NCBI GenBank assembly: GCA_038062295.1 | Contig: JBBTXL010000008.1 | Span: 1,430 to 65,429, forward strand | DNA from: Patescibacteria group bacterium | GTDB lineage: Bacteria; Patescibacteriota; Minisyncoccia; GWC2-36-17; WO2-46-25 | Reading direction: 5' to 3' | Length of the DNA: 64,000 bases | Shown: in pieces, positions 16,498 to 46,472 of the stretch | Numbering within the stretch: the first letter of the stretch is position 1 | Layout: each line of letters starts with the position of its first letter | The notes under the pieces: model-generated | Databases searched by the model: none | The model's input: only the letters and a program-made list of their open reading frames with translations | Told to the model about the DNA's origin: nothing | Translations under genes and position numbers: made by a program

Positions 16498-16509
16498 ATT
16501 TTTATCATG

Positions 16510-16964: not shown

Positions 16965-17017
16965 ATCATTTTTTTAGTTATTTTATTAATTGCGACCTTG
17001 ATGATTTTTTTAAAAAA

Positions 17018-17053: not shown

Positions 17054-17096
17054 TAAAATTTTGTTTGAATATTAGACTAAACCAGACTAAATCGGA

Positions 17097-18035: not shown

Positions 18036-18261
18036 ATTCCCATGTGCCACCTCTATTTTGTATTTTAATAGCACCCCATTCTTCCAGCTTCTCAAGTATT
18101 GCCGCCTTATCTGTGGCTGATGGAGAACTACCAGTGGTGTCAAAAAAACCAAAATCAACCCAATATAAAATTGGGTTGCCTTTTTTGGTATACAGCGACC
18201 TTTCCTTGATTTGTCTTAAAACATACCAGACATTCTGATTAAATTTTTCTTCTGGGGTCAT
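18028..18261 (-). CDS. hypothetical small protein (element)
   Basis: ORF track; translational coupling with downstream gene. Confidence 0.4.
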   Translation of the reverse strand: MTPEEKFNQNVWYVLRQIKERSLYTKKGNPILYWVDFGFFDTTGSSPSATDKAAILEKLEEWGAIKIQNRGGTWEYE

Positions 18262-18438
18262 AGTAATTTATGTTAATTTCATTGTAATTTACCTATATTC
18301 TACCATTTTTCAGCTATTTTTTCAACCTACTAAAACGTTGTGTATTTTTTGCAAATTTTAGTGGTTTATGGTATTTTATAAGCAATAATTAAGCATCGCC
18401 TAACCCTCGTGGTTTTACTACAAGGTATGGCAACAAAC

Positions 18439-18481
18439 ACGGTTCAGGTCATTAAGCTCCTAGTCAGAGCACCTGAACCGT
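18439..18481. promoter_or_regulatory. perfect 11-bp inverted repeat ACGGTTCAGGT...ACCTGAACCGT with 21-nt spacer in divergent intergenic region of the element
   Basis: seen directly; lies between the leftward operon and the rightward 18566 gene. Confidence 0.3.
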
Positions 18482-18565
18482 CATATCCGAAAGGGTATGG
18501 GTGTCGCAAGACATCGCTGGCTGGGAGCTTTGTGTCTATATTCCCACTAGCTTAGAATAATTACT

Positions 18566-21523
18566 ATGAAAATGAGAACACGATTTAGCAGGATAGCTAC
18601 TTTGACGGCATTAACCATTCTTTTGGCTGTGCCTGTTTTTGTTTTCACAGTACCATATTCATATGCGGCACAAAACATTGTTGATGGAGACTTGGTGACC
18701 GTTTCTCCTAATCCAGATATCTATATTGTCAAAATTATAGGTGTCAAAAAGTTTAAAAGGCTCATCCTCAATCCCGATATTTTCGATTCCTATGGGCATC
18801 TCAAATGGAGCAATGTAAAAATGATTGATCAGGCAACCCTTGATTTGTATAAATCTTCTGAACTTGTCATTGAAATCAATGCTGATGGGAGCATTGCCGA
18901 CCCCAAGGTATACAGAGTGGTTTCTTCGGCAAATAGCGATGTTGGCGAACGAAGCTGGTTGAATTTAACAGCTTCTGAATTTGAAGCCGCGGGGTATGAT
19001 TGGGATTCGCTTTATCATGTTAATCATAGAGAAGCATTACCTAGTTTTTACCCAACGAAAAATCCTCTCACATATCAGGATGTTTTAAAAATTAAACAAG
19101 CACCATCTCCATCTGTTCAGGTTGCATTCTCTATCGCGCTAGTTGCTCCGAATAAGATTCTGGCGGGATACGCTACTAATATTGTTATAAAAGGATTTGG
19201 TTTTAAGCAGGGCGCCAGAGTGGACTTTGGATCAGGAGCGACACAAGTACCCTACGGAGTTACGAACTCTGAGCAGATTACCGCACTTATTCCCGCAGGG
19301 ATGCCGCCGCTTACTTATAACCTTTCAATTACGAATCCTGACGGGCAGGTAGCAATTTTAAATGATGCATTAACCTTGCAAGCCTCAACCTCTCAAATTA
19401 TGAATGGTCTGACAACAAGTCAAGTATATGACCTTGTTAGTCCTTCTGTTGTGCAAATAACTAACAATTGTGATAGCTCTCTTGGTAGCGGTTTTGTTTT
19501 TGAAAATGGTGGATACATCTTAACCAATGAACACGTTGTACATGGATGCAGTGCTGTTGGAGTAAAGCTGAAAAGTGGTGTAAATCTTGTGGGAACCGTA
19601 CGTGGGACAGATGCGCTAAATGACGTAGCGGTAGTTAAAATCGACCAAAGTATTCCAACCTTGATTTTAGGTGATTCAAACCTATTTATTGATTCAACTG
19701 TATTTGTTGCCGGACATCCATCTGGTCTTACAAATGTAGTTGTTAATAGGGGTGTTATTAATTCTAGCGGACAACCATGTTTAACCTTTCCTTTGTCCTG
19801 TTCTGGCACTTGGAGTTATCTGACAACGCTTAAATTAGCAGAACATGGTAGTAGTGGAGGGGTTTTGGTGAATGATAAAGGAGAGATTGTTGGATTGCAT
19901 AGAGCAGGAACTGACTCTGTTTCTTTTGCAATACCGATAAATTTCATAAAAGGCATAATACCAACTTTAAAATCTGGAGTATCCACATACACCCCAACTC
20001 CCACACCCTCTCCAGTGCCTACATCCTCTCCAACTCCTGCAACAGTCGTCGCGTTGACTGTCACCAAAAATAGCGGTATGGCTGACGCGACCTCTTCATT
20101 GCCAACGGGCGTGAAGGGAGCGACAAACGTCAAGATCGGTTCATTCGTCTTGACTGCGGGTGCGGGCGAAGCGACATTAGTTAGCCAGATAGTCGTGAAG
20201 AACAGCGCAACCGCAGGATTGGCGTTGGGACATGACTTCCAGAACTTGACTTTGAAGAACGGTACCACCGTTATCGGTTCCCCAATCGGTTCATTGTCAA
20301 CAACGGCAAGCGCGACCTACACCCTTACGCCGTCCTCATCGATAACCATCAATGCGGGACAGCAGTATGTGGTTGACGTGTACGCGGACATCTTAACAGG
20401 ATCTGCAAATGCAGGTGTAGCGGCATATGTTGCAGTGGTATGGGACGATGTGACGGCAGTTGGGAATTCAACAAGCGCCACAGCAGGAGTGGCAACTGAT
20501 GTTATCGGACAAACAGTGTACATCTCAAATGGTGGTTCATTGGTAATCGCAGCGGCTTCAGATATGCCTGTTGCGCAGAACCGCTCAATGGGTCAGACTG
20601 GCCAAACCTTGGTGACATTCAAATTCACTACGGGCGCAAGTGAAGCAGTCAATGTTAGTAAAATCATTGTTACTAACACATTATCAGGTATCGCGATAGC
20701 GGCAACTGGCACTATCACGAACCTCGGATTGTTTAAACCTGACGGGACGCAGGTGGGTACCTACATTTATTATATGACAACGAATAGTGGTCAAGATGCT
20801 CTAGCGACATTCAATGGCCTTACCTTGAATCTTCCGAGAGACACGGCAACGGTCTTGACCTTGAAAGGTGATGTGAACGGCTACCCGAACGGAGTTTCAG
20901 GTAGTGCTCACACTTTCAAGATTGCTACTGTAGCTGATGTTACTGCAACCGGCGCAACCGGCGGAACAACGATTATGGCAAGCGGTCCTTCTATTACAGG
21001 AAACGCGCAGACTGTGTATCGTTCAGAGTTGACTGTAGCAAACGCTATGTCCAACTCCTCGGGTGGTCAGGGTACCGATCAGGTCATAGGTAAATACAGA
21101 TTTACCAATACTTCGGCCGGCAACTACACCATCGCGGTATCTGATATTAATCTTGGATTGACAGGTTCAATTATTAACACTAACGTATCGCGGTACGTTA
21201 CCTTGAAACGGGATTCCGTCAGCGGCGCGACTGTTGCCAAGAAAGTGTTTAAAAACACAAACCTCACAGATATAACAAGTTGGGATCTTTCAGGAACTGA
21301 TAGCAATGAAGTTGCATTCATTCCGTTCACGATTGATTCAGCGGGTGGTACTGGTTACGTTGATTTCTACATATTAGCAGACACTAATGACGCGGCATCA
21401 ACTAGAACCATTTCAACAACCCTTGGAGGTGGCAGTAATGTCATTACATGGGGAGATGGTGTCACAACAGGCATTACTTCGTTGGATAACAAGCCCATCC
21501 CAGGAGCGACCATTACCTACTAA
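18566..21523 (+). CDS. secreted trypsin-like (S1/HtrA-type) serine protease fused to Thr/Ser-rich repetitive surface domain; C-terminal ~480 aa paralogous to the gene at 2..1963
   Basis: signal peptide; protease triad context NEHVVHGC, LNDVAVVKID, EHGSSGGVLVNDKGEIVGLH; C-terminal region SLPTGVKGATNVKIGSFVLTAG...SSSITINAGQQYVVDV...GATITY matches first gene. Confidence 0.85.
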   Translation: MKMRTRFSRIATLTALTILLAVPVFVFTVPYSYAAQNIVDGDLVTVSPNPDIYIVKIIGVKKFKRLILNPDIFDSYGHLKWSNVKMIDQATLDLYKSSELVIEINADGSIADPKVYRVVSSANSDVGERSWLNLTASEFEAAGYDWDSLYHVNHREALPSFYPTKNPLTYQDVLKIKQAPSPSVQVAFSIALVAPNKILAGYATNIVIKGFGFKQGARVDFGSGATQVPYGVTNSEQITALIPAGMPPLTYNLSITNPDGQVAILNDALTLQASTSQIMNGLTTSQVYDLVSPSVVQITNNCDSSLGSGFVFENGGYILTNEHVVHGCSAVGVKLKSGVNLVGTVRGTDALNDVAVVKIDQSIPTLILGDSNLFIDSTVFVAGHPSGLTNVVVNRGVINSSGQPCLTFPLSCSGTWSYLTTLKLAEHGSSGGVLVNDKGEIVGLHRAGTDSVSFAIPINFIKGIIPTLKSGVSTYTPTPTPSPVPTSSPTPATVVALTVTKNSGMADATSSLPTGVKGATNVKIGSFVLTAGAGEATLVSQIVVKNSATAGLALGHDFQNLTLKNGTTVIGSPIGSLSTTASATYTLTPSSSITINAGQQYVVDVYADILTGSANAGVAAYVAVVWDDVTAVGNSTSATAGVATDVIGQTVYISNGGSLVIAAASDMPVAQNRSMGQTGQTLVTFKFTTGASEAVNVSKIIVTNTLSGIAIAATGTITNLGLFKPDGTQVGTYIYYMTTNSGQDALATFNGLTLNLPRDTATVLTLKGDVNGYPNGVSGSAHTFKIATVADVTATGATGGTTIMASGPSITGNAQTVYRSELTVANAMSNSSGGQGTDQVIGKYRFTNTSAGNYTIAVSDINLGLTGSIINTNVSRYVTLKRDSVSGATVAKKVFKNTNLTDITSWDLSGTDSNEVAFIPFTIDSAGGTGYVDFYILADTNDAASTRTISTTLGGGSNVITWGDGVTTGITSLDNKPIPGATITY

Positions 21524-21526
21524 ACC

Positions 21527-21778
21527 ATGAAAAAACTTATCGCCTCTACCGCATTTCTATTTTTATTCATAGCTCTGTTTTATTTTTCCAACCCGGCAGA
21601 AGCAGCCACAAGAACTAGAGGGTACTACAAACCAAGTACTGGTACTTATGTACAGCCGTATTACCGTTCCTCTTCGAACAGCTCAAGATGGGATAACTAT
21701 TCAACGCGAGGCAATTACAATCCCTACACGGGTAAAAAGGGTTATATCAGTCCTTACAAGAGTTATCGGTTTAGATAA
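21527..21778 (+). CDS. small secreted Tyr-rich protein (element)
   Basis: signal peptide MKKLIASTAFLFLFIALFYFSNPAEA then YYKPSTGTYVQPYYRSSS...NPYTGKKGYISPYKSY. Confidence 0.5.
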   Translation: MKKLIASTAFLFLFIALFYFSNPAEAATRTRGYYKPSTGTYVQPYYRSSSNSSRWDNYSTRGNYNPYTGKKGYISPYKSYRFR

Positions 21779-21780
21779 TT

Positions 21781-22131
21781 ATGATCAACAAACTCAACAA
21801 AGTTTTAATCTTATCATGGGCATTGCTTTTTTTAGCGATGCCTATTTTTGTCTCAGCCCATCGTTCCGGTTGTCATCGTTGGCACTCTTGCCCATCTGAT
21901 ACTGGTTCGTATGTCTGTGGTGATTTAGGGCATCCTTGCACGTACCCAACCTATCCCAAGTCTGGTGGTGTTATTTTGCCAGAGAGTGTTGCAACTTTAC
22001 CACAACAACCTCACAAGAAAACCAGTGAAACAGCAAGACAAAAACGGATCACCGTATTGAAAAAGCAGATTTCGGATTTGAGGTTAAAACTTCAGCAATT
22101 AGAGAGCCAACTCAAAGCGCTTGAACAATAA
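21781..22131 (+). CDS. small secreted Cys/His-rich protein with C-terminal coiled coil (element)
   Basis: signal peptide; HRSGCHRWHSCPSDTGSYVCGDLGHPC; C-terminal heptad-like KKQISDLRLKLQQLESQLKALEQ. Confidence 0.5.
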   Translation: MINKLNKVLILSWALLFLAMPIFVSAHRSGCHRWHSCPSDTGSYVCGDLGHPCTYPTYPKSGGVILPESVATLPQQPHKKTSETARQKRITVLKKQISDLRLKLQQLESQLKALEQ

Positions 22132-22212
22132 ATTAAATTGATGTAACAGATGAGTTCACCCGAGTCAAGATATTACGAGACTTTTAGCGGAGTTAGTTTT
22201 TAATCCAATAAT

Positions 22213-22386
22213 ATGGAAATAATAGGTTTAGGTCTAGTCATATTGGGACTTATTTGGACAGTAATCAGTTTTATTATCAAGGTTTTTGTCTATGCTGTTT
22301 ATTTTTTGCCATTTATTGGGTATAAGATATTAGATTTTTTAAGTTTATGGCCACACATTTGGCCACTTAACGGAGTTAGTTTTTAA
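22213..22386 (+). CDS. 57-aa small membrane protein (not in ORF track, below length cutoff)
   Basis: hand translation MEIIGLGLVILGLIWTVISFIIKVFVYAVYFLPFIGYKILDFLSLWPHIWPLNGVSF; ends inside a duplicated ~35-nt motif. Confidence 0.3.
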   Translation: MEIIGLGLVILGLIWTVISFIIKVFVYAVYFLPFIGYKILDFLSLWPHIWPLNGVSF

Positions 22387-22395
22387 CTTAATTAT

Positions 22396-22716
22396 ATGGG
22401 AAAATTTAAATTATCATTACCCATTACAATTTTATTAGCGAGTATTGTTTTAGGCGGCTTCTACTATGCGAGCGAAGCAAACAAACAAAAGTCTACTGAA
22501 AGACAACAGCGAGACGAACAGGTGGTCACCGAAAAAAACCTTTTCGACTTAAAATGGTGTTTAGCGACTGCAGAGGGTGATAGGAAGGATTTTCTAAGAT
22601 TAAACGGTCCTGATGGGCATATTGATGGCCGATATACTAATAATACAACTCTCATACAACAGGCTGAAAGACAAAAAAAGGAAGATGAGCAAAGGTGTTA
22701 TCAGTTATACAAATAA
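22396..22716 (+). CDS. small secreted protein (element)
   Basis: signal peptide MGKFKLSLPITILLASIVLGGFYYASEA; preceded by the duplicated ~35-nt motif. Confidence 0.45.
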   Translation: MGKFKLSLPITILLASIVLGGFYYASEANKQKSTERQQRDEQVVTEKNLFDLKWCLATAEGDRKDFLRLNGPDGHIDGRYTNNTTLIQQAERQKKEDEQRCYQLYK

Positions 22717-22852
22717 TTTATTTCAAAACCAAAAATGCAACCAGGACCTTGGATAGATGCAAACATCTTCGATCCTGATAGCAACGAATTTATTGATGAG
22801 GGGCTGGATGAAGATGATGCTGTTGAATTTGCTGATGAGCTATAAATAGTGA

Positions 22853-23305
22853 GTGGCAGGGTGGGGTAAAAAGGCGTATAGTGAAGTTATGCAAAATGGG
22901 TTAAAAGATAAATGGGTTGAATTTCGTGAGCAACTTGATGCTTTGGGCTACTTGATAGGGGCTGTATTGGTTGTAGGCGCAATTATTTGGGGTATCTATA
23001 GCTTGTTCGGCTGGGGTGAACGAGAAGGTGTAGTGAAGTTTGACGATTGCAGGCAAATGGTAACTCTGAAACCAGATACTTTCCAAAAATACTTCAAATC
23101 CTTTACTTGTATGTATAGGAGAACCGAAAGTGGGAGGATAATGTCGGGTGAGTGTGTCCATATTGATACTGCGGGTACACTGTTTTCAAGCAGTAATGAA
23201 TGTGATACCGCTTATATCTATGAGAAAGAGCAGGAGGGGAGTTGCACGGACCCCAAATATCCATATCTGGGTTACGATGATATGTGTCACACCAACCTGC
23301 AATGA
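22853..23305 (+). CDS. membrane-anchored Cys-rich hypothetical protein (element)
   Basis: ORF track; TM helix LGYLIGAVLVVGAIIWGIYSLFGW; six Cys in C-terminal half. Confidence 0.45.
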   Translation: MAGWGKKAYSEVMQNGLKDKWVEFREQLDALGYLIGAVLVVGAIIWGIYSLFGWGEREGVVKFDDCRQMVTLKPDTFQKYFKSFTCMYRRTESGRIMSGECVHIDTAGTLFSSSNECDTAYIYEKEQEGSCTDPKYPYLGYDDMCHTNLQ

Positions 23306-23501
23306 TACTTTTGAAACAATGAGTAGTTTGATGGGGGTCAGAAGCTCATCGCAAATGAAGGATATTTGAAATGAAACTCACTTTTGCCTTGTAGGAGAAC
23401 AGTTCTAACTTCATCCAGTGCGCGGAGCATCGAAATAAAAAATGTCCCTTTATGGGGTATTTTTTATTTCTGATATTTTAGGAAGTGGGATTCGAAGGGT
23501 A

Positions 23502-23535
23502 TTTCAAAAACAGAAACTGCTTTCTGTTTTTGAAA
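23502..23535. repeat. perfect 15-bp inverted repeat TTTCAAAAACAGAAA-ctgc-TTTCTGTTTTTGAAA ~70 nt inside the right direct repeat
   Basis: seen directly. Confidence 0.4.
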
Positions 23536-23600
23536 ACCCGGGCTCTGGAGGAGTATATTTTTCTTGTGCATATATGCACGAAAAATATGCGGGGGAAGAG

Positions 23601-23616
23601 GAATCCCACCCCCGGA
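23601..23616 (+). repeat. direct repeat copy 2 (putative attR core)
   Basis: GAATCCCACCCCCGGA identical to tRNA-Asn 3-prime end. Confidence 0.6.
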
Positions 23617-23725
23617 ACGCTTGACAAATAGCACAGAAATGTGCTTTATTTGTTTTAGAAAGTTTTCCGAAAAAGAAAACTGCATTCACAACTAAATAGG
23701 GAAGCGAGGAAAGGAGGGATGAAAA

Positions 23726-24307
23726 GTGAACGCTCTGGTCTTGGCTGGCAGTATACTTGGCATCTTAACGTACATTCCGCTGTGGAAGGGGATTAGGTCG
23801 GGTGAGGTGAACCAAAATCTATTCACCTGGATTCTGTGGGTGGCGGTGGACTTCGTTATCGCCGCGTCAGTCATTACGCAGGGCGGGAACTTTTTACTCC
23901 CGGTTGCCTATACGGTGGGGAGCGCGATAACGGCGTTTTTTATCTTCGCGTCGGAGAGCAGGGCTTCTTGGACATGGATTGAGACGGTGGTTGCGCTGCT
24001 TGTTGTAGCAAGTATGGGTGTGTGGGTTTACTCTGGCAGTAAGCTCGCCACCATCGCGAGCACCACGGCAATGATTATCGCGGGAATACCACAGCTTGTT
24101 GATGCGTGGAAGAAGCCCCGGGAAATGCCGATGCCGGTGTTCGTGAGCTACTTTATTGCCAATAGTCTCTCTGCGGCTGGCGGTAAAAACTGGTCCATTG
24201 AAGAGAGGTTTTTCCCGGTAGCATTGGCTTTTTACTGTGTGGCAATAATTTTCTGTTCGGCTCGCCGATTTTGGTTGAAAAGCGCGGTCGACGGGGTGGT
24301 GCATTAA
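23726..24307 (+). CDS. polytopic membrane protein, function unknown
   Basis: ORF track; ~6 predicted TM helices; GC content host-like. Confidence 0.55.
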   Translation: MNALVLAGSILGILTYIPLWKGIRSGEVNQNLFTWILWVAVDFVIAASVITQGGNFLLPVAYTVGSAITAFFIFASESRASWTWIETVVALLVVASMGVWVYSGSKLATIASTTAMIIAGIPQLVDAWKKPREMPMPVFVSYFIANSLSAAGGKNWSIEERFFPVALAFYCVAIIFCSARRFWLKSAVDGVVH

Positions 24308-37183: not shown

Positions 37184-37297
37184 GCGTTCCTCCTTTCAGA
37201 AGGGTATGAACTTGTTAAAGGCCGGTATCCCGCATTGACTTTCATGCGGTAATACTGTAGTACACCATTTAGAAGCTCTTTACAAGAGGGAAAGGGG

Positions 37298-38188
37298 GTG
37301 TGTGTTATGGTGCGCGGAGCGCAGAAAGAAAAGGATGGTATCGGCAAGGATGGGCCGTATTGCCAGATCGCGAAGAATCGCATATCCGCGAAACATTGCG
37401 GAAAGATCCAGGGGCAGGAAGGTTGTTTCGGTTGTGCGGCGCCGACCCGGCGGTGCGAAAGTTGTGAGGAACACATGGTTGAAATTCCCGAGGTCGGCAT
37501 GTGTACGCAGTGTTGCAAGCGGGAACTCGCGCAAGAGGAGCGCGAGGAAAAGAAGCGGAAAGAACCGCTGGAGGACCCCTGCAAGCTCTGCATGAAACGG
37601 CCGCGCCGTTTCAAGCGGTCCAGGCTGTGTCTGCGGTGCCATCATGAACGGTATGCCGCAGGAGATTTCTCCATGTCGTTGCCGGCGGACGTTCGGAAAA
37701 AGCCGTTCCCTCAAAAACGCGGCAGAAAGAAGCGGGAATTTGACCTTGTAACAGCCATCGCAGAAGCTGAACAGGGCATTCTCTCGGGCGGCATTACTAC
37801 GGTTACCCAGTTGTACCGGCGCCTGCGTCAACCAAAAGACAAAAAATACTGGGAGTTGGTGTTGCGGAAGTTTCAGAAAAAGGGACTCGCACAAGAACCC
37901 AAAAGTCGGGGCGGGCGGTGGAAGCTCCTTGTTCCGGAACAGTTTCAGAAACAAAAGAAGAAGCGGGGGAACCGGGTTCCCATGCCGTCCACGACAGTGG
38001 CGTTGACATCGAGACTTCTCTGGATGACGCGGAATTTTTTTGAAAGCGGCGGTGCGCCAGTAGCGATACTCCAAGAGGCGGTTCGCGAGCTCAAAAAGTT
38101 CCGGCACATGAAAAAAGTGCTCGCTCGCCAAATGCGCGAGTGGGACAAGAAGGGATTTCTCACGGATAAAAAGCAAAAAGGAGTATGA
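37298..38188 (+). CDS. hypothetical Cys-rich (multiple CxxC) and Lys/Arg-rich protein
   Basis: CGKIQGQEGCFGC, CESCEEH, CTQCC, CKLCMKRP...CLRCHH; RBS GGAAAGGGGGTG; chosen over antisense ORF 37280..38176. Confidence 0.45.
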   Translation: MCVMVRGAQKEKDGIGKDGPYCQIAKNRISAKHCGKIQGQEGCFGCAAPTRRCESCEEHMVEIPEVGMCTQCCKRELAQEEREEKKRKEPLEDPCKLCMKRPRRFKRSRLCLRCHHERYAAGDFSMSLPADVRKKPFPQKRGRKKREFDLVTAIAEAEQGILSGGITTVTQLYRRLRQPKDKKYWELVLRKFQKKGLAQEPKSRGGRWKLLVPEQFQKQKKKRGNRVPMPSTTVALTSRLLWMTRNFFESGGAPVAILQEAVRELKKFRHMKKVLARQMREWDKKGFLTDKKQKGV

Positions 38189-39125: not shown

Positions 39126-39606
39126 TTATGACAACAGAAAACCGGAGGGGAATGTTTCCCTCCGGTTTGGCCCGCATCGCGTTGGGCGCGGGGGTTATGT
39201 CCATAAGCTTTCAAGTTCCCGGTGGTGTTCCCATAACACCTCCTTTGCCCGGTGGGTGAATAAAAGTGCAATAGCCGCAAGCGTACACCGCGTTGCGCGT
39301 TGTGTCAAGATGTGGCATGAAAGTTGCGGAAAAGCTGTTTCTATTGTTGTGGATAAGATGGGGGAGAAAACGGGTTGACGCGCCGCGCGCATGATGACAC
39401 AATGGGGGCGGATAATTTATATACGGTAACTCTCTCGTCGGGAAAACCGAGATGACACCTCGGAATGACACCACACACAACTTGTGCGCATGCGTGCCTT
39501 TCCCGTGATGGGTGATTATCAAGCCCCTTTTTGGCGTGTGCCGGGAAGGGGATTATTATTTTTTGTAACCATAATCATTAATCTTTATTCGGTAATCTAA
39601 AACAGT

Positions 39607-40905
39607 ATGAAAAAAGTTCTCTTATCTCTCGGTGCGGTGGCGATGGTGCTGGTTGCGCTCCCCATGTTCTCCGCATTCGAGGCGCATGTTATTAACGTAA
39701 CGGCAAAGATAGAAAATGCTTTGTCGGTTCCGGTGAGCGAAATAGATTTCGGCACCGTGTTCCCGCAGGAAAAGCTGGACAAGCAGTTCGACGTTTCCCT
39801 TTCCCAATCGTTCAAGGATGAGGATAGAGTGGACGACGTGGAATATTACATTCGGCAGAAGCCCAAGTGCTGGGACGGCAACGAAACAACGCCGACCTTC
39901 GGGCGTGTGACGGAAGACGCACAGGGGAACTTTGTATGCGTGGATGAAGGGTTCACCATGCTCCCCATTTTATGCCCGTATCTTTCAAAGCATGAATTGA
40001 CGACCGACGGTACGCAACAGGAAAACGACACGGGTATCAACGCGTTCCACGGCCTACCTGGCAGTTGGACGCTCGCAACCACGCTCGCCACACAGGTAAC
40101 AGGGCGGCTTGCAAAGTCCGTGCAGGACTTTACGGACACCTGGAATGTAGATCTGCGCGTGCCATGCTTTGGTGGCCACTGTGCGCAAGACTGGGATGAT
40201 TTCGTACAGAACTCAAACCCAGCAGACTTAGAAATTGACCCGTCCGCATACATCCAGCCACAGGAAAACGAGCATAAATTGTTCGGCTGTGATCTGTGGG
40301 TAGAGGTGTATCGCATCAGTCTTGCAGGCGGCCCGCCCATCGGGTGCGAGGACGAGCTGGATTTGATGCTCGTGCTTGACCGCTCGGGGAGTATTGGGGA
40401 TACGAATATGGGCGTATTGCAAACTGCCGCAAAAGCATTTGTGGACGCACTAGGACTTGGTACGCCGGGTCCGCACGCGGGCATGGTGAGTTTTGCAAGC
40501 GGCGCCTCGCTGGATGTGCATCTGACGGATGATGCTGTGGCGGTAAAAGCAGCGATCGATTTGTTGGTTTCTTCCGGCCTTACGGCGCTTGGCGACGGCA
40601 TCAATACCGCAAAGACAGAGCTAGACAACCCCGGCGACGGCCACGATCGTCTGGATGCGGGTTCTCCCGACTACATGGTTATTATCACCGACGGCGCGCC
40701 CAACACAGGTGCGGATTCCGCAACCGCAGCGGCTGCGGCAAAAGCGGCCGGTATCACTATCTATGTGGTAGGGGTAGGCACGACGGGTGGCACGGAAACA
40801 TTCTTACGCGATACTATCGCAACCTCGCCCGCACACTACTTCAGCATCGCAAATTACGATGATCTGCAGGCGCTCCTAAGCGGATTGGTAAACTGTCCCG
40901 CATAA
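39607..40905 (+). CDS. secreted protein: conserved post-signal-peptide domain (FEAHVINVTAKIEN...) fused to C-terminal vWA/MIDAS domain; cluster member 1
   Basis: signal peptide MKKVLLSLGAVAMVLVALPMFSA; conserved Cys framework; vWA motifs DLMLVLDRSGSIG, GLTALGDGI, VIITDGAPN. Confidence 0.85.
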   Translation: MKKVLLSLGAVAMVLVALPMFSAFEAHVINVTAKIENALSVPVSEIDFGTVFPQEKLDKQFDVSLSQSFKDEDRVDDVEYYIRQKPKCWDGNETTPTFGRVTEDAQGNFVCVDEGFTMLPILCPYLSKHELTTDGTQQENDTGINAFHGLPGSWTLATTLATQVTGRLAKSVQDFTDTWNVDLRVPCFGGHCAQDWDDFVQNSNPADLEIDPSAYIQPQENEHKLFGCDLWVEVYRISLAGGPPIGCEDELDLMLVLDRSGSIGDTNMGVLQTAAKAFVDALGLGTPGPHAGMVSFASGASLDVHLTDDAVAVKAAIDLLVSSGLTALGDGINTAKTELDNPGDGHDRLDAGSPDYMVIITDGAPNTGADSATAAAAAKAAGITIYVVGVGTTGGTETFLRDTIATSPAHYFSIANYDDLQALLSGLVNCPA

Positions 40906-40908
40906 CGG

Positions 40909-42255
40909 ATGAAAAGAACATTCACCACAATTCTTTCGCTGGGCGCCATGCTCGTCATGGTGCCCATGCTTGCCGCCTACGAGGCGCATGTGTTGAATGT
41001 TATCGCGCAAATTGAGAATGGGGGAGACATCATCGTCACGCCGGGCGACCCGGTGGATTTCGGCACGGTGTTCCCCCAGGAGAAACTGGACAAACAGTTT
41101 GAGATCGCACTCTCGCAGACGTTCATCAACGATCCACAATACGACCTCTTGGAATATTCCGTCACGCAGGAACCCAAATGCTGGAACGGCAACGAGCAAG
41201 CTCCCGTGTTCGGGGAAGCGCAAATCGTGAACAACCAGTTCGTCTGTATTGACCAGGGTTTTACCTTCCTTCCTATTCTGTGTCCGTATCTCTCAAAACA
41301 TGAGCTCACGGGCGACGCGACGGGCGATACGGAGCCGGGCGAAACCCCGGGCGACCCCGTGGATGAAAACGACGGGCCGGGCATCCTCGCGTTTCATGGC
41401 GTGATAGATGTGAATGCTTGGAGCCCGCTCGTTGCTTCCTCCACCATGGAAGTCGGTGCGCTTAAAAAAACAGCCGAAGACCTTGCCGATACCTGGAATA
41501 TTGATCTCAAAGTACCGTGTTTCACGGGCCACTGCGCGCAGGACTGGGAGGACTATGTCAAAGGCATCAACCCGCAGGCAAATCCGGACGACTACATCCA
41601 GCCCCTGGAAAACGAGCACAAGCTGTTTGGCTGTAACATCCGCATCTCGGTGACCGGTAAGCCCTCTACGGTTGGTTGTCAGGGTAAGGTTGACCTCATG
41701 CTCGTACTTGACCGCTCGGGGAGTATTGACTTCACGGAGCTTGGACAACTCAAAACTGCGGCAAATGCTTTTGTGGATGCGCTTGCGCCGTCTGCAAGTA
41801 GTGTACATATTGGCCAATCAAGCTTTGCAACAACCGGCTCGCTTGATTTGCATCTTACCGACAACGCAACATCAACACATGCGGCAATTAACGCACTTAT
41901 TGCGGTCGGGCAGACCAACCTGAAATCCGGTATAGACTTTGCAAAAACGGAACTGAACAACCCCGGCGACGGGCATGACCGCACGGATGGTGACTCGCCC
42001 GACAAGATGGTTATCATCACCGACGGTGCGCCGAACAGACCGATTCCGGCAATTACCGCAGACGATGTAGCAGCAGCATCAGCAGATGCTGCGCGCGCTG
42101 CTGGTATTGAAATTTTTGCACTTGGCGTTGGGGTTTCTGCATCAACTGAAACATTTTTGAAAACCGAAATTGCCGATGATGCCGCGCATTACTATTCCGT
42201 GCTGAACTACGCGGATCTGCAAGCCGCGCTGGAACTGCTTGCCGAATGTGACTGA
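40909..42255 (+). CDS. secreted protein, same N-domain plus vWA domain; cluster member 2
   Basis: AAYEAHVLNVIAQIEN...; DLMLVLDRSGSID, VIITDGAPN; 3-nt spacing from upstream gene. Confidence 0.85.
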   Translation: MKRTFTTILSLGAMLVMVPMLAAYEAHVLNVIAQIENGGDIIVTPGDPVDFGTVFPQEKLDKQFEIALSQTFINDPQYDLLEYSVTQEPKCWNGNEQAPVFGEAQIVNNQFVCIDQGFTFLPILCPYLSKHELTGDATGDTEPGETPGDPVDENDGPGILAFHGVIDVNAWSPLVASSTMEVGALKKTAEDLADTWNIDLKVPCFTGHCAQDWEDYVKGINPQANPDDYIQPLENEHKLFGCNIRISVTGKPSTVGCQGKVDLMLVLDRSGSIDFTELGQLKTAANAFVDALAPSASSVHIGQSSFATTGSLDLHLTDNATSTHAAINALIAVGQTNLKSGIDFAKTELNNPGDGHDRTDGDSPDKMVIITDGAPNRPIPAITADDVAAASADAARAAGIEIFALGVGVSASTETFLKTEIADDAAHYYSVLNYADLQAALELLAECD

Positions 42256-42417
42256 TTGCACACACTCCCATCTTTTGGCGCAAGCGAAAAGATGGGAGTG
42301 GCCACAATCCACCCTTCGCCTCTTTCGGGGCCGCTCGACGCCTAAAGAAGTGAGGGGATGATACGCAATGGCCAGGTCGATCATCCTTAATTAGCATTAA
42401 ACAAAGATTATACGCAT

Positions 42418-43332
42418 ATGAAAAAAGTTTTACTTTCACTGGGAGCTGTTGCCTTCGTATTGGTCGCGCTCCCGATGTTCTCGGCATTTGAGGCGCATGT
42501 TATCAACGTGGTCGCAAAGATCGAGAATGCGCTTTCGGTGGATACGCGACCGATCAACTTCGGCACGGTATTCCCGCAGGAAGAACTTGAACGGCCGTTG
42601 GCGGTTCAACTTTCGCAGTCGTTTGTGGATGAGGAAAATGCCGATGATGTTCGGTACATTATTCGCCAGAAGCCGAAGTGCGGTGTAACAACCGACAATG
42701 GAACTGTATTGGTCGGCCCAACCTGGACCGGTCACGTTGTACCAACACTGGATGACCCGCAAACCACAGATGTTGATGAAAGCAAGGGTGGCACAGCTTA
42801 CACGATTGACTGTGAAAAGGATAAGCCTGCTAACTTGGAGGAAGCAACCTATGGCTTACTGCCGATGCTTTGTCAGTATATCTCGAAGCACCCGGTAGCG
42901 GCTTGCGCTGATGGGTTGGATAATGATAACGATCAGGCAATCGACGGACAGGATGTGGATTGTGCAGGCGCGACAGATGACAACGAAGGATTGCCAGGGT
43001 CTCAACCAGAAGGCGATGATGGAAGTCTGAATTCGTTCCATCAGCCGTTTTCGGTGAGTAATTCGACGGTGCAATGGAATGATGTTCATGGTCTTCTTGC
43101 AAAGTCGCTGAGCGACCGTGCAGATCTGTGGACGATTGACCTTGCGGTGCCATGCTTTGGCGGATACTGCGCACAGGATTGGGCAGACTTTGTGCACGGC
43201 ATCAATCCGGATGCAGACCCGAATGCATACACCCAGTCAATTGACAACGAACACAAGATTTTCGGTTGCAATCTCTGGATTGAAGTGACCGAAGTGAGTC
43301 GTGTTGATACAAACCCGACTGACAACCAATAG
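42418..43332 (+). CDS. secreted protein, same N-domain only (no vWA) with acidic insertion; cluster member 3
   Basis: MKKVLLSLGAVAFVLVALPMFSAFEAHVINVVAKIEN; conserved Cys framework ...VPCFGGYCAQDW...HKIFGCNLWIEV. Confidence 0.8.
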   Translation: MKKVLLSLGAVAFVLVALPMFSAFEAHVINVVAKIENALSVDTRPINFGTVFPQEELERPLAVQLSQSFVDEENADDVRYIIRQKPKCGVTTDNGTVLVGPTWTGHVVPTLDDPQTTDVDESKGGTAYTIDCEKDKPANLEEATYGLLPMLCQYISKHPVAACADGLDNDNDQAIDGQDVDCAGATDDNEGLPGSQPEGDDGSLNSFHQPFSVSNSTVQWNDVHGLLAKSLSDRADLWTIDLAVPCFGGYCAQDWADFVHGINPDADPNAYTQSIDNEHKIFGCNLWIEVTEVSRVDTNPTDNQ

Positions 43333-43420
43333 TTTGAGCTAATCTCTGAATCTCTCCGGCGGTTGCTTGTGACAACGGCCGGAGGATTGAGTGATTATTA
43401 ATTCATAAGAGGGAAAACTT

Positions 43421-43909
43421 ATGGAAAACCAATTGTACGAAGTTCAGCAAGAAACCGCTCCGCAAACGCCCGAAAAAAAGGGCTGGTGGGGAGCGCTCAA
43501 AGTGTGGGAAAAGATAGTCACCATCGTGCTTGCGCTTGTGGTGCTGTTTGCGTTTTATATCGCGCTTGACGCGAATAAATACCAAGCGACGGTGCATGTG
43601 ATAGAAGGCGAGGGGAAAGTGGGTATCAACCCCACCACCGAGCGCCTGGACTTTGGCGACCTTTCGCGTGGGACTTCCGCCGTGCGCCGCGTAACGGTGA
43701 CAAACGGCACGGCAATGCCGATGTATGTGATGGTGTGGAAAACGGGCAAAGTAAGCGAGCTGATGGACGAGAATAAAAATTACTTCACGCTCGCGCCGGG
43801 GAACGAGGAACGCCTTGAATTCACCATTTACATGCCTGCGTCGGCACAGATCGGTGCGACGCTGGATGGCCGTGTGTATTTGCTAAAAATCCCTACGTTC
43901 GGACTGTAA
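43421..43909 (+). CDS. small membrane-anchored member of the same family (N-terminal cytoplasmic tail plus TM, then ...ATVHVIEGEG... domain); cluster member 4
   Basis: LDFGDLSRGTSAVRRVTVTNGT parallels IDFGTVFPQEKLDKQFDVSLSQ of the larger members. Confidence 0.65.
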   Translation: MENQLYEVQQETAPQTPEKKGWWGALKVWEKIVTIVLALVVLFAFYIALDANKYQATVHVIEGEGKVGINPTTERLDFGDLSRGTSAVRRVTVTNGTAMPMYVMVWKTGKVSELMDENKNYFTLAPGNEERLEFTIYMPASAQIGATLDGRVYLLKIPTFGL

Positions 43910-43920
43910 CGCCCAACGCT

Positions 43921-44469
43921 ATGCTTCCCAACCCGCTTATCATTCCTTCGGGACCGCCGCAACGGAGCGCACCGGAACTGCAACAGGCGTCGGAGCGGGA
44001 ACCCGCGCCGGAGGGAAAGAAAAAAAGACCCTTCTGGAGAAAGGCGGTGAATGTCGTTGCATATATAGTCATTATCGGGGGTATTACATTCGGCTTGCCC
44101 AAAGCGCTTGCGTGGGCGCTGGATACGCCCTACCCCATGGCGACCATCACCTCGGGCTCCATGTGGCCTGCGCTCAAAGAGGGCGATTTGGTGTTCATAC
44201 AAGGCATCAAAAGCAAAAGCGACATGAGTATCGGCGATGTGGTGGTGTATCGCAACAAGGAGAATGGCACATTCGTCATTCACCGTGTGGTCGCGATGGG
44301 CGAGAAAACATTTACCACCAAGGGCGACGCCAACTTCTCGAAAGACGACCCGGTGCGGTATGAGGACGCGGTGGGCAAGGCCTACGAACTGGGGGGGTAC
44401 TACGCCCGCATTCCGTACTTGGGCATTATTACCGTGTATGCCAGCAAGCAACTAAACCATCAGCCATGA
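43921..44469 (+). CDS. SipW/Sec11-type (archaeal/ER-type) signal peptidase I
   Basis: N-terminal TM; SGSMWP (Ser box), VIHRVV (His box), TKGDAN (GDNN-like box); ~180 aa with no bacterial LepB Lys box. Confidence 0.75.
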   Translation: MLPNPLIIPSGPPQRSAPELQQASEREPAPEGKKKRPFWRKAVNVVAYIVIIGGITFGLPKALAWALDTPYPMATITSGSMWPALKEGDLVFIQGIKSKSDMSIGDVVVYRNKENGTFVIHRVVAMGEKTFTTKGDANFSKDDPVRYEDAVGKAYELGGYYARIPYLGIITVYASKQLNHQP

Positions 44470-45479
44470 AATTGTTTCCCGTCATTGTTTTTTTCGCACT
44501 TGCGTTCGCGCTCGTGAACTCCGGAATATTTCTTGGAGCGTTTGAAGCGCATGTGCTGAACGTGACGGCCGTGATAGACGACAACCCGCCGCTGTGCGAT
44601 GCGCGCTCGCTGGGGTATTGGAAGAACCACGAGGGATGTTTTAAGGGGAAAGGGGAGAGTATCTGGACGGACGAGATACACCAGGTAACTACGGAATTTG
44701 CGGGGATATTTTACGATATTACGGGAGAGCAAATTTGCAAGGCGGTGTGGATCTCTTCTTGCCCGTCGGGCAACGACCCGGATGCGCGAAGATGCAAGGC
44801 GCGTGCGATGGCGCTTGCCGTGGAGTTGAACCTTGTGTCGGGGCGTTTGCAATTGGACGCTCTGCTTGCGGGAGCGGACGACGGTTCCTCGGCCTTTGAC
44901 CATCTGGGGCTGACGGGGGCCTCCACCATCCGGCAGGCGATGATGATGATAGAAATTATCATCGGCACGCCGTCCTCCACGAGCCAACAGCTCAAAGACG
45001 CGGCGTATGTCGCCGAGCGCATATACACGTTCTATGAGTCGGAAAATCCGGATGCGCCGCGCTGTGTGTATGTCCCGCCGCCGCCCAAAGACGATTGCGA
45101 CAAAGACGGGCATCATAGCGGGAACGATTTTGGGACCGGCACGGAGCAGTTTCTTATCACTACCGGCGGCAGCCACGACGACGGGAAAGAATGCGATGAT
45201 GATACAAAAAACGATGACGACAACCATCACGACTGGTGGGACTTGCTGTCATATCCGGGTGACAATGATTTCAACAGCCAGGACAACCATGAAACCGGCG
45301 ACACAGACAGGGGAGAGCGCGGCGAGCGCGGTTCACACGACAACAACGGGACAACAACGGATGTATTCAATGCCACAACAACCGCCGATGTGTTGAACGG
45401 AACTTCAACGATAGATACCCTTGGTGGTACCGGTGACGATGACGGCCGCAAAGAACGCGGAGACAGGGAAGACCGCTGA
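44466..45479 (+). CDS. secreted protein with the same post-signal motif (FEAHVLNVTAVID) and a long Asp/His/Gly-rich acidic C-terminal tail; cluster member 5
   Basis: ATGA overlap with sipW-like gene; signal peptide; C-terminal DDGKECDDDTKNDDDNHHDWW...GDDDGRKERGDREDR. Confidence 0.7.
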   Translation: MKLFPVIVFFALAFALVNSGIFLGAFEAHVLNVTAVIDDNPPLCDARSLGYWKNHEGCFKGKGESIWTDEIHQVTTEFAGIFYDITGEQICKAVWISSCPSGNDPDARRCKARAMALAVELNLVSGRLQLDALLAGADDGSSAFDHLGLTGASTIRQAMMMIEIIIGTPSSTSQQLKDAAYVAERIYTFYESENPDAPRCVYVPPPPKDDCDKDGHHSGNDFGTGTEQFLITTGGSHDDGKECDDDTKNDDDNHHDWWDLLSYPGDNDFNSQDNHETGDTDRGERGERGSHDNNGTTTDVFNATTTADVLNGTSTIDTLGGTGDDDGRKERGDREDR

Positions 45480-45491: not shown

Positions 45492-46472
45492 CTAGATATG
45501 CTTTTGCTGCTCCATTTCGCGGAGCAGTTTTTGCATTGCATCCATCTGGTCGGGGTCGTGGATGGAAATTGCGCACGCGGACGGGTTGAGTTTTTTCAGT
45601 ATGGTGAGTCTCTTTTTTTGTTCTTTGGGTACCAGGAGATCGCTCTTACTCAAGAAAAGGTATTCTTTTTTTTGAAGGAGCTTTGGGTGATATGCGCCAA
45701 GCTCCGTGCGGATGGTTTTGTAATCGCGCGCGGGGTTGTCCGACTCTGCCGATACGAAGTGAAACAGGGTTTTGGTGCGTTCAATATGCCGCAGAAATTT
45801 TACGCCCAAACCTTTGCCCACCGATGCGCCTTCAATAATGCCCGGAATGTCGGCGAGCACCAGGTCGCCATGTACGCCTAAATTCGGTTCCAGCGTGGTG
45901 AAAGGGTAGTTGGCTACCTTGCTTCTGGCTTTGGTGAGCTCGTTGAGCATGCTCGATTTGCCGGCGTTGGGGAGGCCGATAAGTCCGATGTCGGCGATGA
46001 GTTTGAGTTCCAGGCGCAGGGTGAAGCGCTCGCCTTCCCGCCCGCGTTCACATTGTTTGGGTGAGGTGTTGATGGACGAACGGAACAAAAAATTTCCTTT
46101 TCCGCCGCCGCCGCCCCGCGCCATGGGGATGCGCTCGCCGATGGCGGTAATTTCCGCACGGTCGCTGGTGGTGAGACTATGGATAACGGTGCCAACGGGA
46201 ATTTTGATAATAAGGTCTGCGCCGTCGGTGCCGTCGTTGCACTGGATGCGGCCGTGCTTGCCGTTCTCGGCTTTCAGAACTTTTTTAAACCGGAACTGCG
46301 AAAGGGCGGACAGGTTGGAAATACCTTCCATGTACACACTGCCGCCTTTGCCGCCGGTGCCGCCGGTGGGGCCGAGTGCCAGCAGGTTCTTTTGAAACGA
46401 TACTTTGCCGTCTCCGCCGTTGCCCGCGATTATTTCTATAGTGACATCGTCTATTAACATGGAGCGGAGCAT
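45492..46472 (-). CDS. obg: GTPase Obg
   Basis: Gly-rich Obg fold GNGGDGKVSF...GGTGGKGGSV; G1 GLIGLPNAGKSS; G2 FTTLEPNLGV. Confidence 0.9.
   Translation of the reverse strand: MLRSMLIDDVTIEIIAGNGGDGKVSFQKNLLALGPTGGTGGKGGSVYMEGISNLSALSQFRFKKVLKAENGKHGRIQCNDGTDGADLIIKIPVGTVIHSLTTSDRAEITAIGERIPMARGGGGGKGNFLFRSSINTSPKQCERGREGERFTLRLELKLIADIGLIGLPNAGKSSMLNELTKARSKVANYPFTTLEPNLGVHGDLVLADIPGIIEGASVGKGLGVKFLRHIERTKTLFHFVSAESDNPARDYKTIRTELGAYHPKLLQKKEYLFLSKSDLLVPKEQKKRLTILKKLNPSACAISIHDPDQMDAMQKLLREMEQQKHI

What the first reader, a model, noticed from the sequence alone, without database searches (positions are those of the whole stretch)
39607..45479. Six-gene SipW-type signal peptidase plus secreted fibre/adhesin-like cluster with vWA-tipped subunits
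The cluster is five same-strand genes for secreted or membrane-anchored proteins, two of them carrying full vWA/MIDAS domains, with a dedicated ER/archaeal-type signal peptidase I gene embedded among them and translationally coupled to the fifth. The peptidase has the SGSM, HRV and KGDAN boxes and lacks the bacterial LepB Lys box. This organization parallels the tapA-sipW-tasA arrangement of Bacillus, where SipW processes the matrix-fibre proteins. Here the cargo is a different family with a Cys framework and optional vWA adhesin domains, so it may be an undescribed SipW-dependent surface fibre or adhesin system in a CPR-like bacterium. A short stretch of the N-domain (IDFGTVFPQEKLDKQFDVS) loosely resembles the TasA/camelysin region SNLKPGDKLTKDFQFEN, but that is inference only.
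Basis: partly seen in the sequence, partly recalled or inferred. Interest (0 to 1): 0.85.

Follow-up and report, generated by a model that had tools for sequence, protein, structure and literature searches.

The report
Patescibacterial adhesin cluster with dedicated peptidase
This is a six-gene cluster, conserved across Parcubacteria-type ultra-small bacteria and so far undescribed, in which a Sec11/SipW-type signal peptidase sits beside secreted proteins that share one near-invariant N-terminal tag, so it is probably a modular surface adhesin or fibre system resembling TasA/SipW but built from a different protein family.

Summary
Six same-strand genes lie at 39607-45479. Two are vWA-tipped subunits (g1, g2) and one is a bare subunit (g3). 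g4 is a membrane-anchored Ig-like protein. g5 is an ER/archaeal-type signal peptidase I; it passes TIGR02228 and its best solved relatives are SEC11A/C. Its stop codon overlaps the start of g6.

g1, g2, g3 and g6 carry the motif A-[FY]-EAHV-[IL]-NV-x-A-x-I directly after the signal-peptide hydrophobic core. The ~240-aa subunit domain has no Pfam or NCBIfam match and no significant solved-structure match. It is found almost only in Patescibacteria (608 clusters at 50% identity). It carries interchangeable C-terminal binding domains, including SpaA_2, vWA, LTD, PA14 and lectin-like domains.

Synteny is near-absolute. In 59 of 60 informative genomic loci the subunit genes are followed by g4 then g5. 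In 20 of 20 informative loci found through the peptidase, g4 lies directly upstream.

TasA homology is not supported: no PF12389 or TIGR04088 hit, hhalign probability 8%, Foldseek E = 1.4. The organisation still parallels tapA-sipW-tasA, sipW-bsaABC and archaeal Tafi.

Assembly into a fibre by N-terminal strand donation is plausible but untested. I rate this a new variant of a known kind, interest about 0.68.

The parts
39607..40905 (+). g1: tipped subunit. Signal peptide (1-22), AFEAHVINVTAKIENAL motif (23-39), ~210-aa Cys-framework N-domain, C-terminal vWA/MIDAS domain (aa 252-423).
   Evidence: ORF; VWA 6.4e-24; N-domain 57% identical to g2 and g3; 49% identical over its full length to the VWA-tipped protein of L001.
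40909..42255 (+). g2: second vWA-tipped subunit (motif AYEAHVLNVIAQIEN; VWA at aa 262-439). It starts 3 nt after the g1 stop.
42418..43332 (+). g3: bare subunit, N-domain only, with an acidic double-disulfide insertion. It is the candidate shaft subunit.
43421..43909 (+). g4: N-in single-pass membrane protein. It has a variable cytoplasmic tail, a TM helix at 28-50, an invariant LDANKY, and a complete MSP/PapD-like Ig domain. It is always found directly upstream of the peptidase. Candidate roles are membrane anchor, assembly partner or peptidase accessory subunit.
43921..44469 (+). g5: ER/archaeal-type (S26B, Sec11/SipW-like) signal peptidase I. One N-terminal TM (aa ~41-62), catalytic Ser80 (SGSM), His121 (IHRV) and Asp136 (KGDAN).
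   Evidence: TIGR02228 at 95 bits, above the 51.85 cutoff; SEC11A/C at ~1e-9 with the catalytic motifs aligned; homologs in L001 and L003 also pass TIGR02228.
44466..45479 (+). g6: the same signal peptide and AFEAHVLNVTAVID motif, followed by an unrelated ~170-aa six-Cys domain and an acidic low-complexity tail. Its start overlaps the g5 stop. It is TapA-like in logic: it has the tag, and therefore the putative donor strand, but not the subunit body.
   Evidence: 50 homologs, all unnamed or 'hypothetical' and Patescibacteria where the source is named. Alignment. No Pfam, NCBIfam or PDB match. In other loci this position holds other bodies (LTD or Fn3_assoc-like) that carry the same motif.
39531..39559 (+). 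Weak sigma-70-like promoter match in the 480-bp gap upstream of g1.
   Evidence: The count of such matches is not above the shuffled expectation, so this is only a candidate.
45506..45528 (+). Terminator-like hairpin plus T-run, 27 nt after the g6 stop.
   Evidence: consensus scan only.

Best explanation
The cluster encodes a cell-surface adhesin system specific to Patescibacteria, and it has its own processing enzyme.

Shown:
- g5 is a Sec11/SipW-type signal peptidase I.
- g1, g2, g3 and g6 are Sec substrates that carry a near-invariant tag, A-[FY]-E-A-H-V-[IV]-N-V-x-A-x-I-E-N, immediately after the hydrophobic core.
- g1-g3 share a new Cys-framework beta-sandwich domain. Across the family this domain is fused to interchangeable binding domains.
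- g4 is a membrane-anchored Ig-like protein that is always paired with the peptidase.

Inferred:
- g5 cleaves just before or within the A-A/S-F of the tag. By analogy with A|AFND in TasA and A|AFHD in TapA, cleavage would fall near S22|A23.
- This would expose an amphipathic N-terminal beta-strand.
- That strand would insert into the sandwich of a neighbouring subunit (donor-strand complementation). The result would be a short heteropolymer of bare shaft subunits (g3) and vWA-bearing subunits (g1, g2).
- g6 has the strand but not the subunit body, so it would act like TapA as a one-ended nucleator or cap.
- g4 would tether or chaperone the assembly at the membrane, or serve as the peptidase's accessory subunit.
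- The likely biological role is attachment of these ultra-small, probably episymbiotic cells to host cells or surfaces.
For: - Peptidase type.
- Tag: within the 64-kb window it occurs only in g1, g2, g3 and g6. A23-L39 is almost entirely invariant in 53 homologs that are otherwise 54-67% identical.
- The same tag sits on at least three unrelated mature bodies, always in these clusters. A census found 180 tagged ORFs: 146 with the N-domain and the rest with g6-like, LTD/Fn3_assoc-like or other bodies.
- Synteny from the subunit side: 59 of 77 loci have g4 and g5 downstream; 17 of the other 18 are truncated, leaving one true exception.
- Synteny from the peptidase side: g4 lies directly upstream in 20 of 20 informative loci, and N-domain genes are present in 10 of 11 loci with at least 2.1 kb upstream.
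- A separate LepB-type peptidase lies next to the cluster in L073.
- Modular adhesin tips: SpaA_2 in 18, VWA in 14, MopE-like in 10 and LTD in 6 of the 89 long members scanned, plus PA14, Laminin_G_3, DUF642, beta-helix, MAM and CBM domains.
- Bare and tipped paralogs co-occur in 20 of 38 loci.
- In the AF2 monomer of g3 the tag segment is not built into the sandwich.
- Some loci hold a compact N-domain paralog that has an ordinary signal peptide and lacks the AFEAHVINVTA segment while keeping the downstream I-x-x-x-L-S-V part of the tag. A strand-exchange polymer would need such an end subunit.
- Experimentally characterised precedents: TapA shares TasA's donor-strand sequence and nucleates fibres, and tapA and sipW overlap stop to start (PMC9674648, PMC10151520). 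The sipW-bsaA-bsaB-bsaC operon includes a vWA protein (PMC11580942). The Tafi system has the TafD peptidase with its partner TafG (PMC11821415, PMC12337348).
Against: - There is no direct evidence of cleavage or polymerisation.
- In g4 the equivalent strand (52-61) folds in cis into its own Ig domain, so the subunits' strand might do the same.
- The tag contains invariant polar residues (E25, H27, N30, E36, N37). This is unusual for a purely hydrophobic donor strand.
- The residues at -1 and -3 around the proposed cleavage site are not canonical.
- One locus (L040) has subunit genes with no adjacent g4-g5.
Confidence: 0.55

Rival explanations
1. The proteins are monomeric tagged adhesins and do not form a fibre. 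Each is an independent secreted or surface-held adhesin. The conserved tag is only the recognition and cleavage determinant for the dedicated peptidase, and it also forms the first strand of each Ig-like domain in cis. g4 is an accessory subunit of the peptidase, as SPC22/23 is for SEC11 and TafG is for TafD. It may also act as a docking site that holds the cleaved proteins on the membrane.
For: - In g4 the homologous strand is modelled in cis with high confidence.
- The spacing between the strand and the xDFGxV motif is similar in g4 and in the subunits.
- g4-g5 adjacency is invariant, as expected for a two-subunit enzyme.
- 12 of 38 loci have only tipped subunits.
Against: - A bare subunit with no binding domain (g3 type) is present in 26 of 38 loci and has no obvious role as a monomeric adhesin.
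- The AF2 model of g3 does not place the tag strand in cis.
- Some N-domain paralogs lack the AFEAHVINVTA segment. They evidently fold without it, so that segment is not needed in cis.
- The tag is carried by unrelated bodies.
Confidence: 0.3
2. The subunits are highly diverged members of the TasA/camelysin (Peptidase_M73) jelly-roll family, and the cluster is a direct ortholog of tapA-sipW-tasA.
For: - The pattern around the cleavage site (A-A-F-x) and the following ~40 residues align loosely with TasA. hhalign gives a pairwise E of 0.004 but a probability of only 8%.
- PF12389 homologs are reported in some Patescibacteria (PMC9245690).
Against: - No PF12389 or TIGR04088 hit.
- The family profile finds no PDB sequence, including TasA, AbpA and CanX, at E<=10.
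- Foldseek against the TasA fibre gives E = 1.4 and TM 0.21-0.26.
- The best fold matches are ASH/PapD-like Ig folds, not jelly-rolls.
- g5 fails the SipW equivalog cutoff.
Confidence: 0.07
3. g5 is simply the organism's housekeeping signal peptidase, and its position next to secreted-protein genes is incidental.
For: The window itself contains no other S26 gene (searches cover only part of the genome).
Against: - Linkage to g4 and to the tagged proteins is near-absolute in both search directions.
- A canonical LepB-type gene (SM...KRVIG...GDNR..S.DSR) lies 2.3 kb from the cluster in L073.
- The tag is restricted to cluster proteins.
Confidence: 0.05

Closest known systems
tapA-sipW-tasA of Bacillus subtilis (TasA fibres)
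   Same: - A dedicated ER/archaeal-type signal peptidase is embedded among its substrates.
- The peptidase gene overlaps a neighbouring substrate gene stop to start.
- Substrates have A|AF right at the mature N-terminus.
- An accessory protein (TapA; here g6) shares the N-terminal segment of the major subunit but has a different body (PMC9674648, PMC10151520).
   Different: - The subunit is not a detectable TasA/Peptidase_M73 member.
- It has a six-Cys framework and C-terminal adhesin domains.
- There is an extra, obligatory membrane-anchored Ig-like protein (g4).
- The peptidase is short, with a single TM, and scores below the SipW equivalog cutoff.
sipW-bsaA-bsaB-bsaC of Clostridium perfringens
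   Same: It combines a SipW-type peptidase, two paralogous fibre subunits and a vWA-domain protein in one operon. Donor-strand exchange from a disordered N-terminal segment has been proposed for it (PMC11580942).
   Different: - There the vWA protein (BsaC) is separate; here vWA is fused to the subunit domain.
- BsaA and BsaB are TasA-like; the present family is not.
- An N-E-K isopeptide lock is shown for BsaA and is untested here.
Tafi (Tat-fimbriae) of haloarchaea: TafA/C/E/F with TafD peptidase and TafG
   Same: - A strand-donation filament that depends on a dedicated S26 peptidase encoded in the locus.
- The peptidase is paired with a conserved partner protein.
- Structural components vary between loci while the enzymatic ones are conserved (PMC11821415, PMC12337348).
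   Different: - Tafi subunits use Tat signals; here the signals are Sec-type with no twin arginine.
- TafD has four TMs and TafG is DUF5305; g4 gave no DUF5305 hit.
- Tafi is archaeal, and there is no detectable sequence relationship.
Chaperone-usher pili (Fim/Pap)
   Same: - Ig-like subunits are joined by an N-terminal extension.
- The system includes adhesin-bearing subunits and end subunits that lack one of the two interaction elements.
   Different: - There is no outer membrane and no usher.
- g4 has one Ig domain and is membrane-anchored, whereas CU chaperones are soluble two-domain proteins.
- The fold similarity is only at the level of generic Ig-like sandwiches.
Eukaryotic signal peptidase complex (SEC11 with SPC22/23)
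   Same: g5's closest solved relatives are SEC11A and SEC11C. SEC11 works with a single-pass membrane partner that has a lumenal beta-sandwich; this is my recollection of entry 7P2P. That topology matches g4.

Membership tests
ER/archaeal-type signal peptidase I (S26B; TIGR02228 sigpep_I_arch) | Scores above the curated family cutoff | tested here: met
   95 bits against a cutoff of 51.85. Homologs in L001 and L003 score 83.3 and 87.0 bits.
ER/archaeal-type signal peptidase I (S26B; TIGR02228 sigpep_I_arch) | Ser/His (plus Asp) catalytic residues, with His in place of the LepB catalytic Lys | tested here: met
   The alignment to SEC11A puts SGSM, IHRV and KGDAN in register with SGSMEP, VHRV and KGDNN. 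The bacterial-type model TIGR02227 scores 46.1, below its cutoff of 47.
SipW (NF046067 equivalog, Bacillus) | Scores above the equivalog cutoff | tested here: not met
   54.7 bits against a cutoff of 190. g5 is SipW-like in type but is not a SipW ortholog.
TasA/camelysin (Pfam PF12389 Peptidase_M73) | Sequence match to the family profile | tested here: not met
   No hit at E<=1 for g1-g4 or g6. None of the 89 long family members scanned matched it. The family profile finds no PDB sequence.
TasA/camelysin (Pfam PF12389 Peptidase_M73) | Jelly-roll fold similar to TasA or AbpA | tested here: inconclusive
TasA/camelysin (Pfam PF12389 Peptidase_M73) | SipW-cognate class signal peptide (TIGR04088) | tested here: not met
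   No hit for the full proteins at E<=1 or for the N-terminal 67-76-aa fragments at E<=10.
Donor-strand-complemented filament (functional class) | The N-terminal strand of one subunit completes the sheet of the next | not testable with these tools
There are only indirect indications: the tag is unplaced in the monomer model and tag-less paralogs exist.
von Willebrand factor A domain | PF00092 match above cutoff and a complete MIDAS motif (DxSxS...T...D) | tested here: met
   g1 scores 85.5 bits and g2 66 bits against a cutoff of 23.8. DRSGS, a Thr (GLTALG in g1, GQTNLK in g2) and IITDGAPN can be read in the translations.
Sortase-assembled Gram-positive pili | C-terminal LPXTG sorting signal and a sortase gene in the locus | tested here: not met
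   The C-termini read ...LVNCPA...LAECD and ...NPTDNQ, with no LPXTG and no terminal TM. No sortase was found among the cluster ORFs.
Chaperone-usher pili | Two-domain periplasmic PapD-type chaperone plus an outer-membrane usher | tested here: not met
   g4 is a single Ig domain on a TM anchor. No usher-like ORF is present in the cluster.
Tafi (haloarchaeal Tat-fimbriae) | Tat signal on the subunits, and a TafG (DUF5305) partner for the peptidase | tested here: not met
   The n-regions are MKK or MKR with no twin arginine. g4 has no DUF5305 hit.

The most novel reading that the evidence does not exclude
The cluster builds a previously unrecognised class of bacterial surface filament that is restricted to Patescibacteria. 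It would be a chaperone- and usher-free pilus assembled by strand exchange and made of a new Cys-framework Ig-like pilin. Growth at the membrane would be triggered by a Sec11-like peptidase working with a membrane-anchored PapD-like partner (g4). The invariant polar residues of the tag (E25, H27, N30, E36, N37) might form a covalent or metal-dependent lock. Swappable adhesin tips (vWA, SpaA_2, PA14, lectin-like) would determine which host cell a Parcubacteria episymbiont attaches to.
Probability: 0.35. Interest if true: 0.85.

Novelty: new variant of a known kind. Interest (0 to 1): 0.68.

Why it matters
Parcubacteria and related Patescibacteria are abundant, almost entirely uncultured, and thought to live attached to other microbes. 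Apart from type IV pili in Saccharibacteria, the molecules that mediate attachment are largely unknown. This cluster is conserved across many candidate lineages (Ryan-, Wildermuth-, Giovannoni-, Doudna-, Uhr-, Azam-, Vogel- and Harrisonbacteria). It diversifies mainly in its binding domains, which is the pattern expected of a host-recognition device.

It would also extend the emerging group of fibre systems that have their own S26B signal peptidase (TasA, BsaA, Tafi) to a new phylum and a new subunit fold.

Finally, it defines a recognisable N-terminal sorting tag (AFEAHVxNVxAxIEN). That tag could be used to list the substrates in any genome.

Tried and rejected
- Pfam, NCBIfam and PHROGs scans of all six proteins found nothing for the N-domain, g4 or g6 beyond weak Ig-like hints.
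- Scanning only the N-terminal 67-76 residues for the SipW-cognate signal model TIGR04088 gave no hit.
- Profile searches of PDB sequences with the N-domain, g4 and g6 alignments found nothing significant.
- Foldseek of the g3 model against the PDB found nothing below E = 0.17. The afdb50 library was unavailable.
- hhalign of the N-domain against the g4 family gave probability 0.3%. Against TasA, using a sequence I recalled from memory, it gave 8%. I do not claim homology from either result.
- The Peptidase_S24 gene upstream of the cluster in L001 looked like a possible second signal peptidase, but it is LexA.
- I considered class III (prepilin) signals and rejected them because the tag lies after the hydrophobic core, not before it.
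- I considered a sortase pilus and rejected it because there is no LPXTG motif and no sortase.
- I considered thioester motifs around CAQDW and rejected them because the spacing does not fit. This rests on my own knowledge of those motifs.

Full report
**What is there.**
The region 39607-45479 holds six ORFs on the + strand. Opposite-strand genes bound it: parB on one side and obg on the other. The spacing is tight. g1 and g2 are 3 nt apart, g4 and g5 are 11 nt apart, and g5 and g6 overlap by 4 nt.

- g1 and g2 end in complete vWA domains (PF00092, E = 6e-24 and 6e-18). The MIDAS residues are readable in the translations.
- g5 is a signal peptidase I of the ER/archaeal type. It scores 95 bits on TIGR02228 (cutoff 51.85). 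It falls below the cutoffs of the bacterial model TIGR02227 and of the Bacillus SipW equivalog (54.7 against 190 bits).
- The closest solved relatives of g5 are human SEC11A and SEC11C (about 1e-9), with SGSM, HRV and KGDxN aligned to the catalytic Ser, His and Asp motifs. S. aureus SpsB reaches only 0.077.

**The shared element.**
g1, g2 and g3 share a ~240-aa N-terminal domain at 57% identity. g6 shares only the signal peptide and the next ~15 residues. g4 shares neither.

What unites g1, g2, g3 and g6 is the segment A-[FY]-EAHV-[IL]-NV-x-A-x-I-[ED], which follows the hydrophobic core directly. Within the 64-kb window it occurs in these four proteins only. In an alignment of g3 with 52 homologs that are 54-67% identical overall, positions A23-L39 are almost all invariant. 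Six cysteines are invariant as well.

**The family.**
- g3 has 1162 homologs at E<=1e-3 in the 90% clustered database. They are unnamed or 'hypothetical', and where the source is named it is Patescibacteria. One exact match is MAG protein AAB581_00620.
- An exhaustive profile search of 1.8 billion representatives finds only 608 clusters (468 at E<=1e-10). The family is therefore lineage-restricted and does not merge into a large known family.
- The N-domain has no Pfam or NCBIfam model.
- Of the 89 longer members scanned, the C-terminal parts carry SpaA_2 (18 members), VWA (14), MopE-like disulfide repeats (10) and LTD (6). Others carry beta-helix, DUF642, ice-binding-like, Laminin_G_3, PA14, MAM or CBM domains. 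None matches Peptidase_M73.

This is the architecture of a constant stalk or assembly module with exchangeable binding heads.

**Synteny.**
A scan of one genome per species returned 109 relatives in 76 loci. Nearly all are Patescibacteria MAGs: Ryan-, Wildermuth-, Giovannoni-, Doudna-, Uhr-, Azam-, Vogel- and Harrisonbacteria and Paceibacteria. A few bins carry other labels.

- Together with the loci fetched earlier, there are 77 distinct loci with an N-domain gene. Of these, 59 have a g4 homolog followed by a g5 homolog downstream on the same strand. The median gap between the two matches is 34 nt.
- Of the other 18 loci, 17 end less than 1.8 kb after the last subunit gene. Only L040 is a genuine exception.
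- In the reverse direction, 24 metagenomic loci were retrieved through g5. All 20 with at least 290 nt upstream have g4 directly upstream. Ten of the 11 with at least 2.1 kb upstream have N-domain genes.
- A typical locus has 1-5 subunit genes, often one or more tipped plus one or two bare. Bare and tipped types co-occur in 20 of 38 loci. These are followed by g4, then g5, then one protein that carries the same tag on a different body.
- That last position holds the g6 family in about a third of loci. Elsewhere it holds LTD/Fn3_assoc-like or other bodies.
- Some loci add a compact N-domain paralog with an ordinary AxA signal peptide. It lacks the AFEAHVINVTA segment but keeps the downstream I-x-x-x-L-S-V part of the tag.

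**Is g5 a dedicated enzyme?**
In L073 a canonical LepB-type gene lies 2.3 kb from the cluster. Its SM, KRVIG and GDNR..S.DSR boxes can be read directly (the SipS query was recalled from memory, but the boxes are visible in the ORF). At least one genome therefore has both peptidase types. Combined with the linkage data, this makes g5 a cluster-specific enzyme and not the housekeeping one. I could not check the whole genome that the window comes from.

**Structures.**
- The AF2 model of g3 (pLDDT 82.5, pTM 0.75) is a beta-sandwich with low-confidence acidic insertions. Residues 23-38, the tag, are not assigned to any strand.
- Archaeal strand-donation fibre proteins score lower but over long stretches: DUF1102 tube 6.4, CanX 5.9, AbpA 5.7. 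TasA is not in the top 60.
- Foldseek finds nothing below E = 0.17, and the TasA fibre scores E = 1.4.
- The segment of g4 after its TM helix (A-L-D-A-N-K-Y-Q-A-T-V-H-V-I-E-G) is colinear in pattern with the tag. hhalign nevertheless sees no significant relationship between the two families.

**Relation to TasA.**
Its probability is only 8%. Every formal membership test for TasA/camelysin fails or is inconclusive. I therefore do not file the subunits under TasA.

The working logic does match three experimentally studied systems:
- **tapA-sipW-tasA.** TasA polymerises through its N-terminal strand. TapA shares that strand's sequence and nucleates the fibre. tapA and sipW overlap stop to start (PMC9674648, PMC10151520).
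- **sipW-bsaA-bsaB-bsaC.** This C. perfringens operon includes a vWA protein, and strand exchange locked by an isopeptide bond is proposed for it (PMC11580942).
- **Haloarchaeal Tafi.** The locus-encoded peptidase TafD is required for processing and is paired with TafG (PMC11821415, PMC12337348).

**Mechanism and confidence.**
I hold with high confidence (about 0.85) that this is a dedicated-peptidase and cognate-substrate system in which the tag is the shared determinant.

I hold with moderate confidence (about 0.45) that cleavage frees the tag as a donor strand and that the subunits form a heteropolymer. In that model g6-type proteins act as strand-only end pieces, and g4 acts as anchor, chaperone or peptidase partner.

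The main rival (about 0.3) is that the proteins are monomeric adhesins, the tag serves only for recognition and as a cis strand, and g4 is a peptidase accessory subunit. The cis placement of the strand in g4 and the invariant polar residues in the tag favour caution. The bare subunits, the paralogs lacking the AFEAHVINVTA segment, the occurrence of the tag on unrelated bodies and the unplaced tag in the g3 model favour the polymer model.

**Novelty.**
I found no paper that describes this cluster. No family model exists for the N-domain, g4 or g6. The general kind of system, a fibre or adhesin operon with its own S26B peptidase, is known. I therefore rate this as a new variant of a known kind. 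Its interest lies mainly in what it could say about host attachment in Parcubacteria.

Noticed in passing
window 13153-24000: A low-GC island (36-41% against ~55% in the flanks) begins at a tRNA gene (13153-13224). Next to the tRNA is a large serine recombinase ORF (13186-14844, - strand; Resolvase, Recombinase and Zn_ribbon_recom domains). This is probably an integrated mobile element.
   Followed up: partly
window 18397-18515 (+) and 18566-21523 (+): A LOOT RNA (Rfam RF03000, 73.6 bits against a gathering score of 46.4) lies immediately upstream of a 985-aa protein with a Trypsin_2 domain. Both sit inside the low-GC island.
   Followed up: no
window 2093-8739 (+): Three tandem large membrane proteins each carry a Wzy_C/O-antigen-ligase domain. 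Two of them also show sub-threshold TPR matches. They could be glycosyltransfer or ligase enzymes acting on surface proteins, but no link to the cluster was tested.
   Followed up: no
L001 15167-17119, L003 15412-16488, L040 1882-2985: These loci carry compact N-domain paralogs with an ordinary AxA signal peptide and no AFEAHVINVTA segment. In L001 and L003 they lie downstream of the peptidase. They are candidate 'donor-less' end subunits. The window has no such gene.
   Followed up: partly
window 39673-39723 (g1 tag) and the equivalent positions in g2, g3 and g6: The tag contains invariant polar residues (E25, H27, N30, E36, N37) and, in most family members, an N-V-T sequon. These might serve a covalent lock (compare the BsaA N-E-K isopeptide, PMC11580942), metal binding or glycosylation. 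This remains unexplained.
   Followed up: no
L040 (Uhrbacteria MAG) 1735-9071: This is the only informative locus where subunit genes are not followed by g4-g5. A 1440-aa protein follows instead.
   Followed up: partly
window 37280-38188: Two nearly coextensive ORFs lie on opposite strands (298 aa on - and 296 aa on +) between a sigma-factor gene and parB. The + strand product is basic and Cys-rich. Which of the two is the real gene was not resolved.
   Followed up: no
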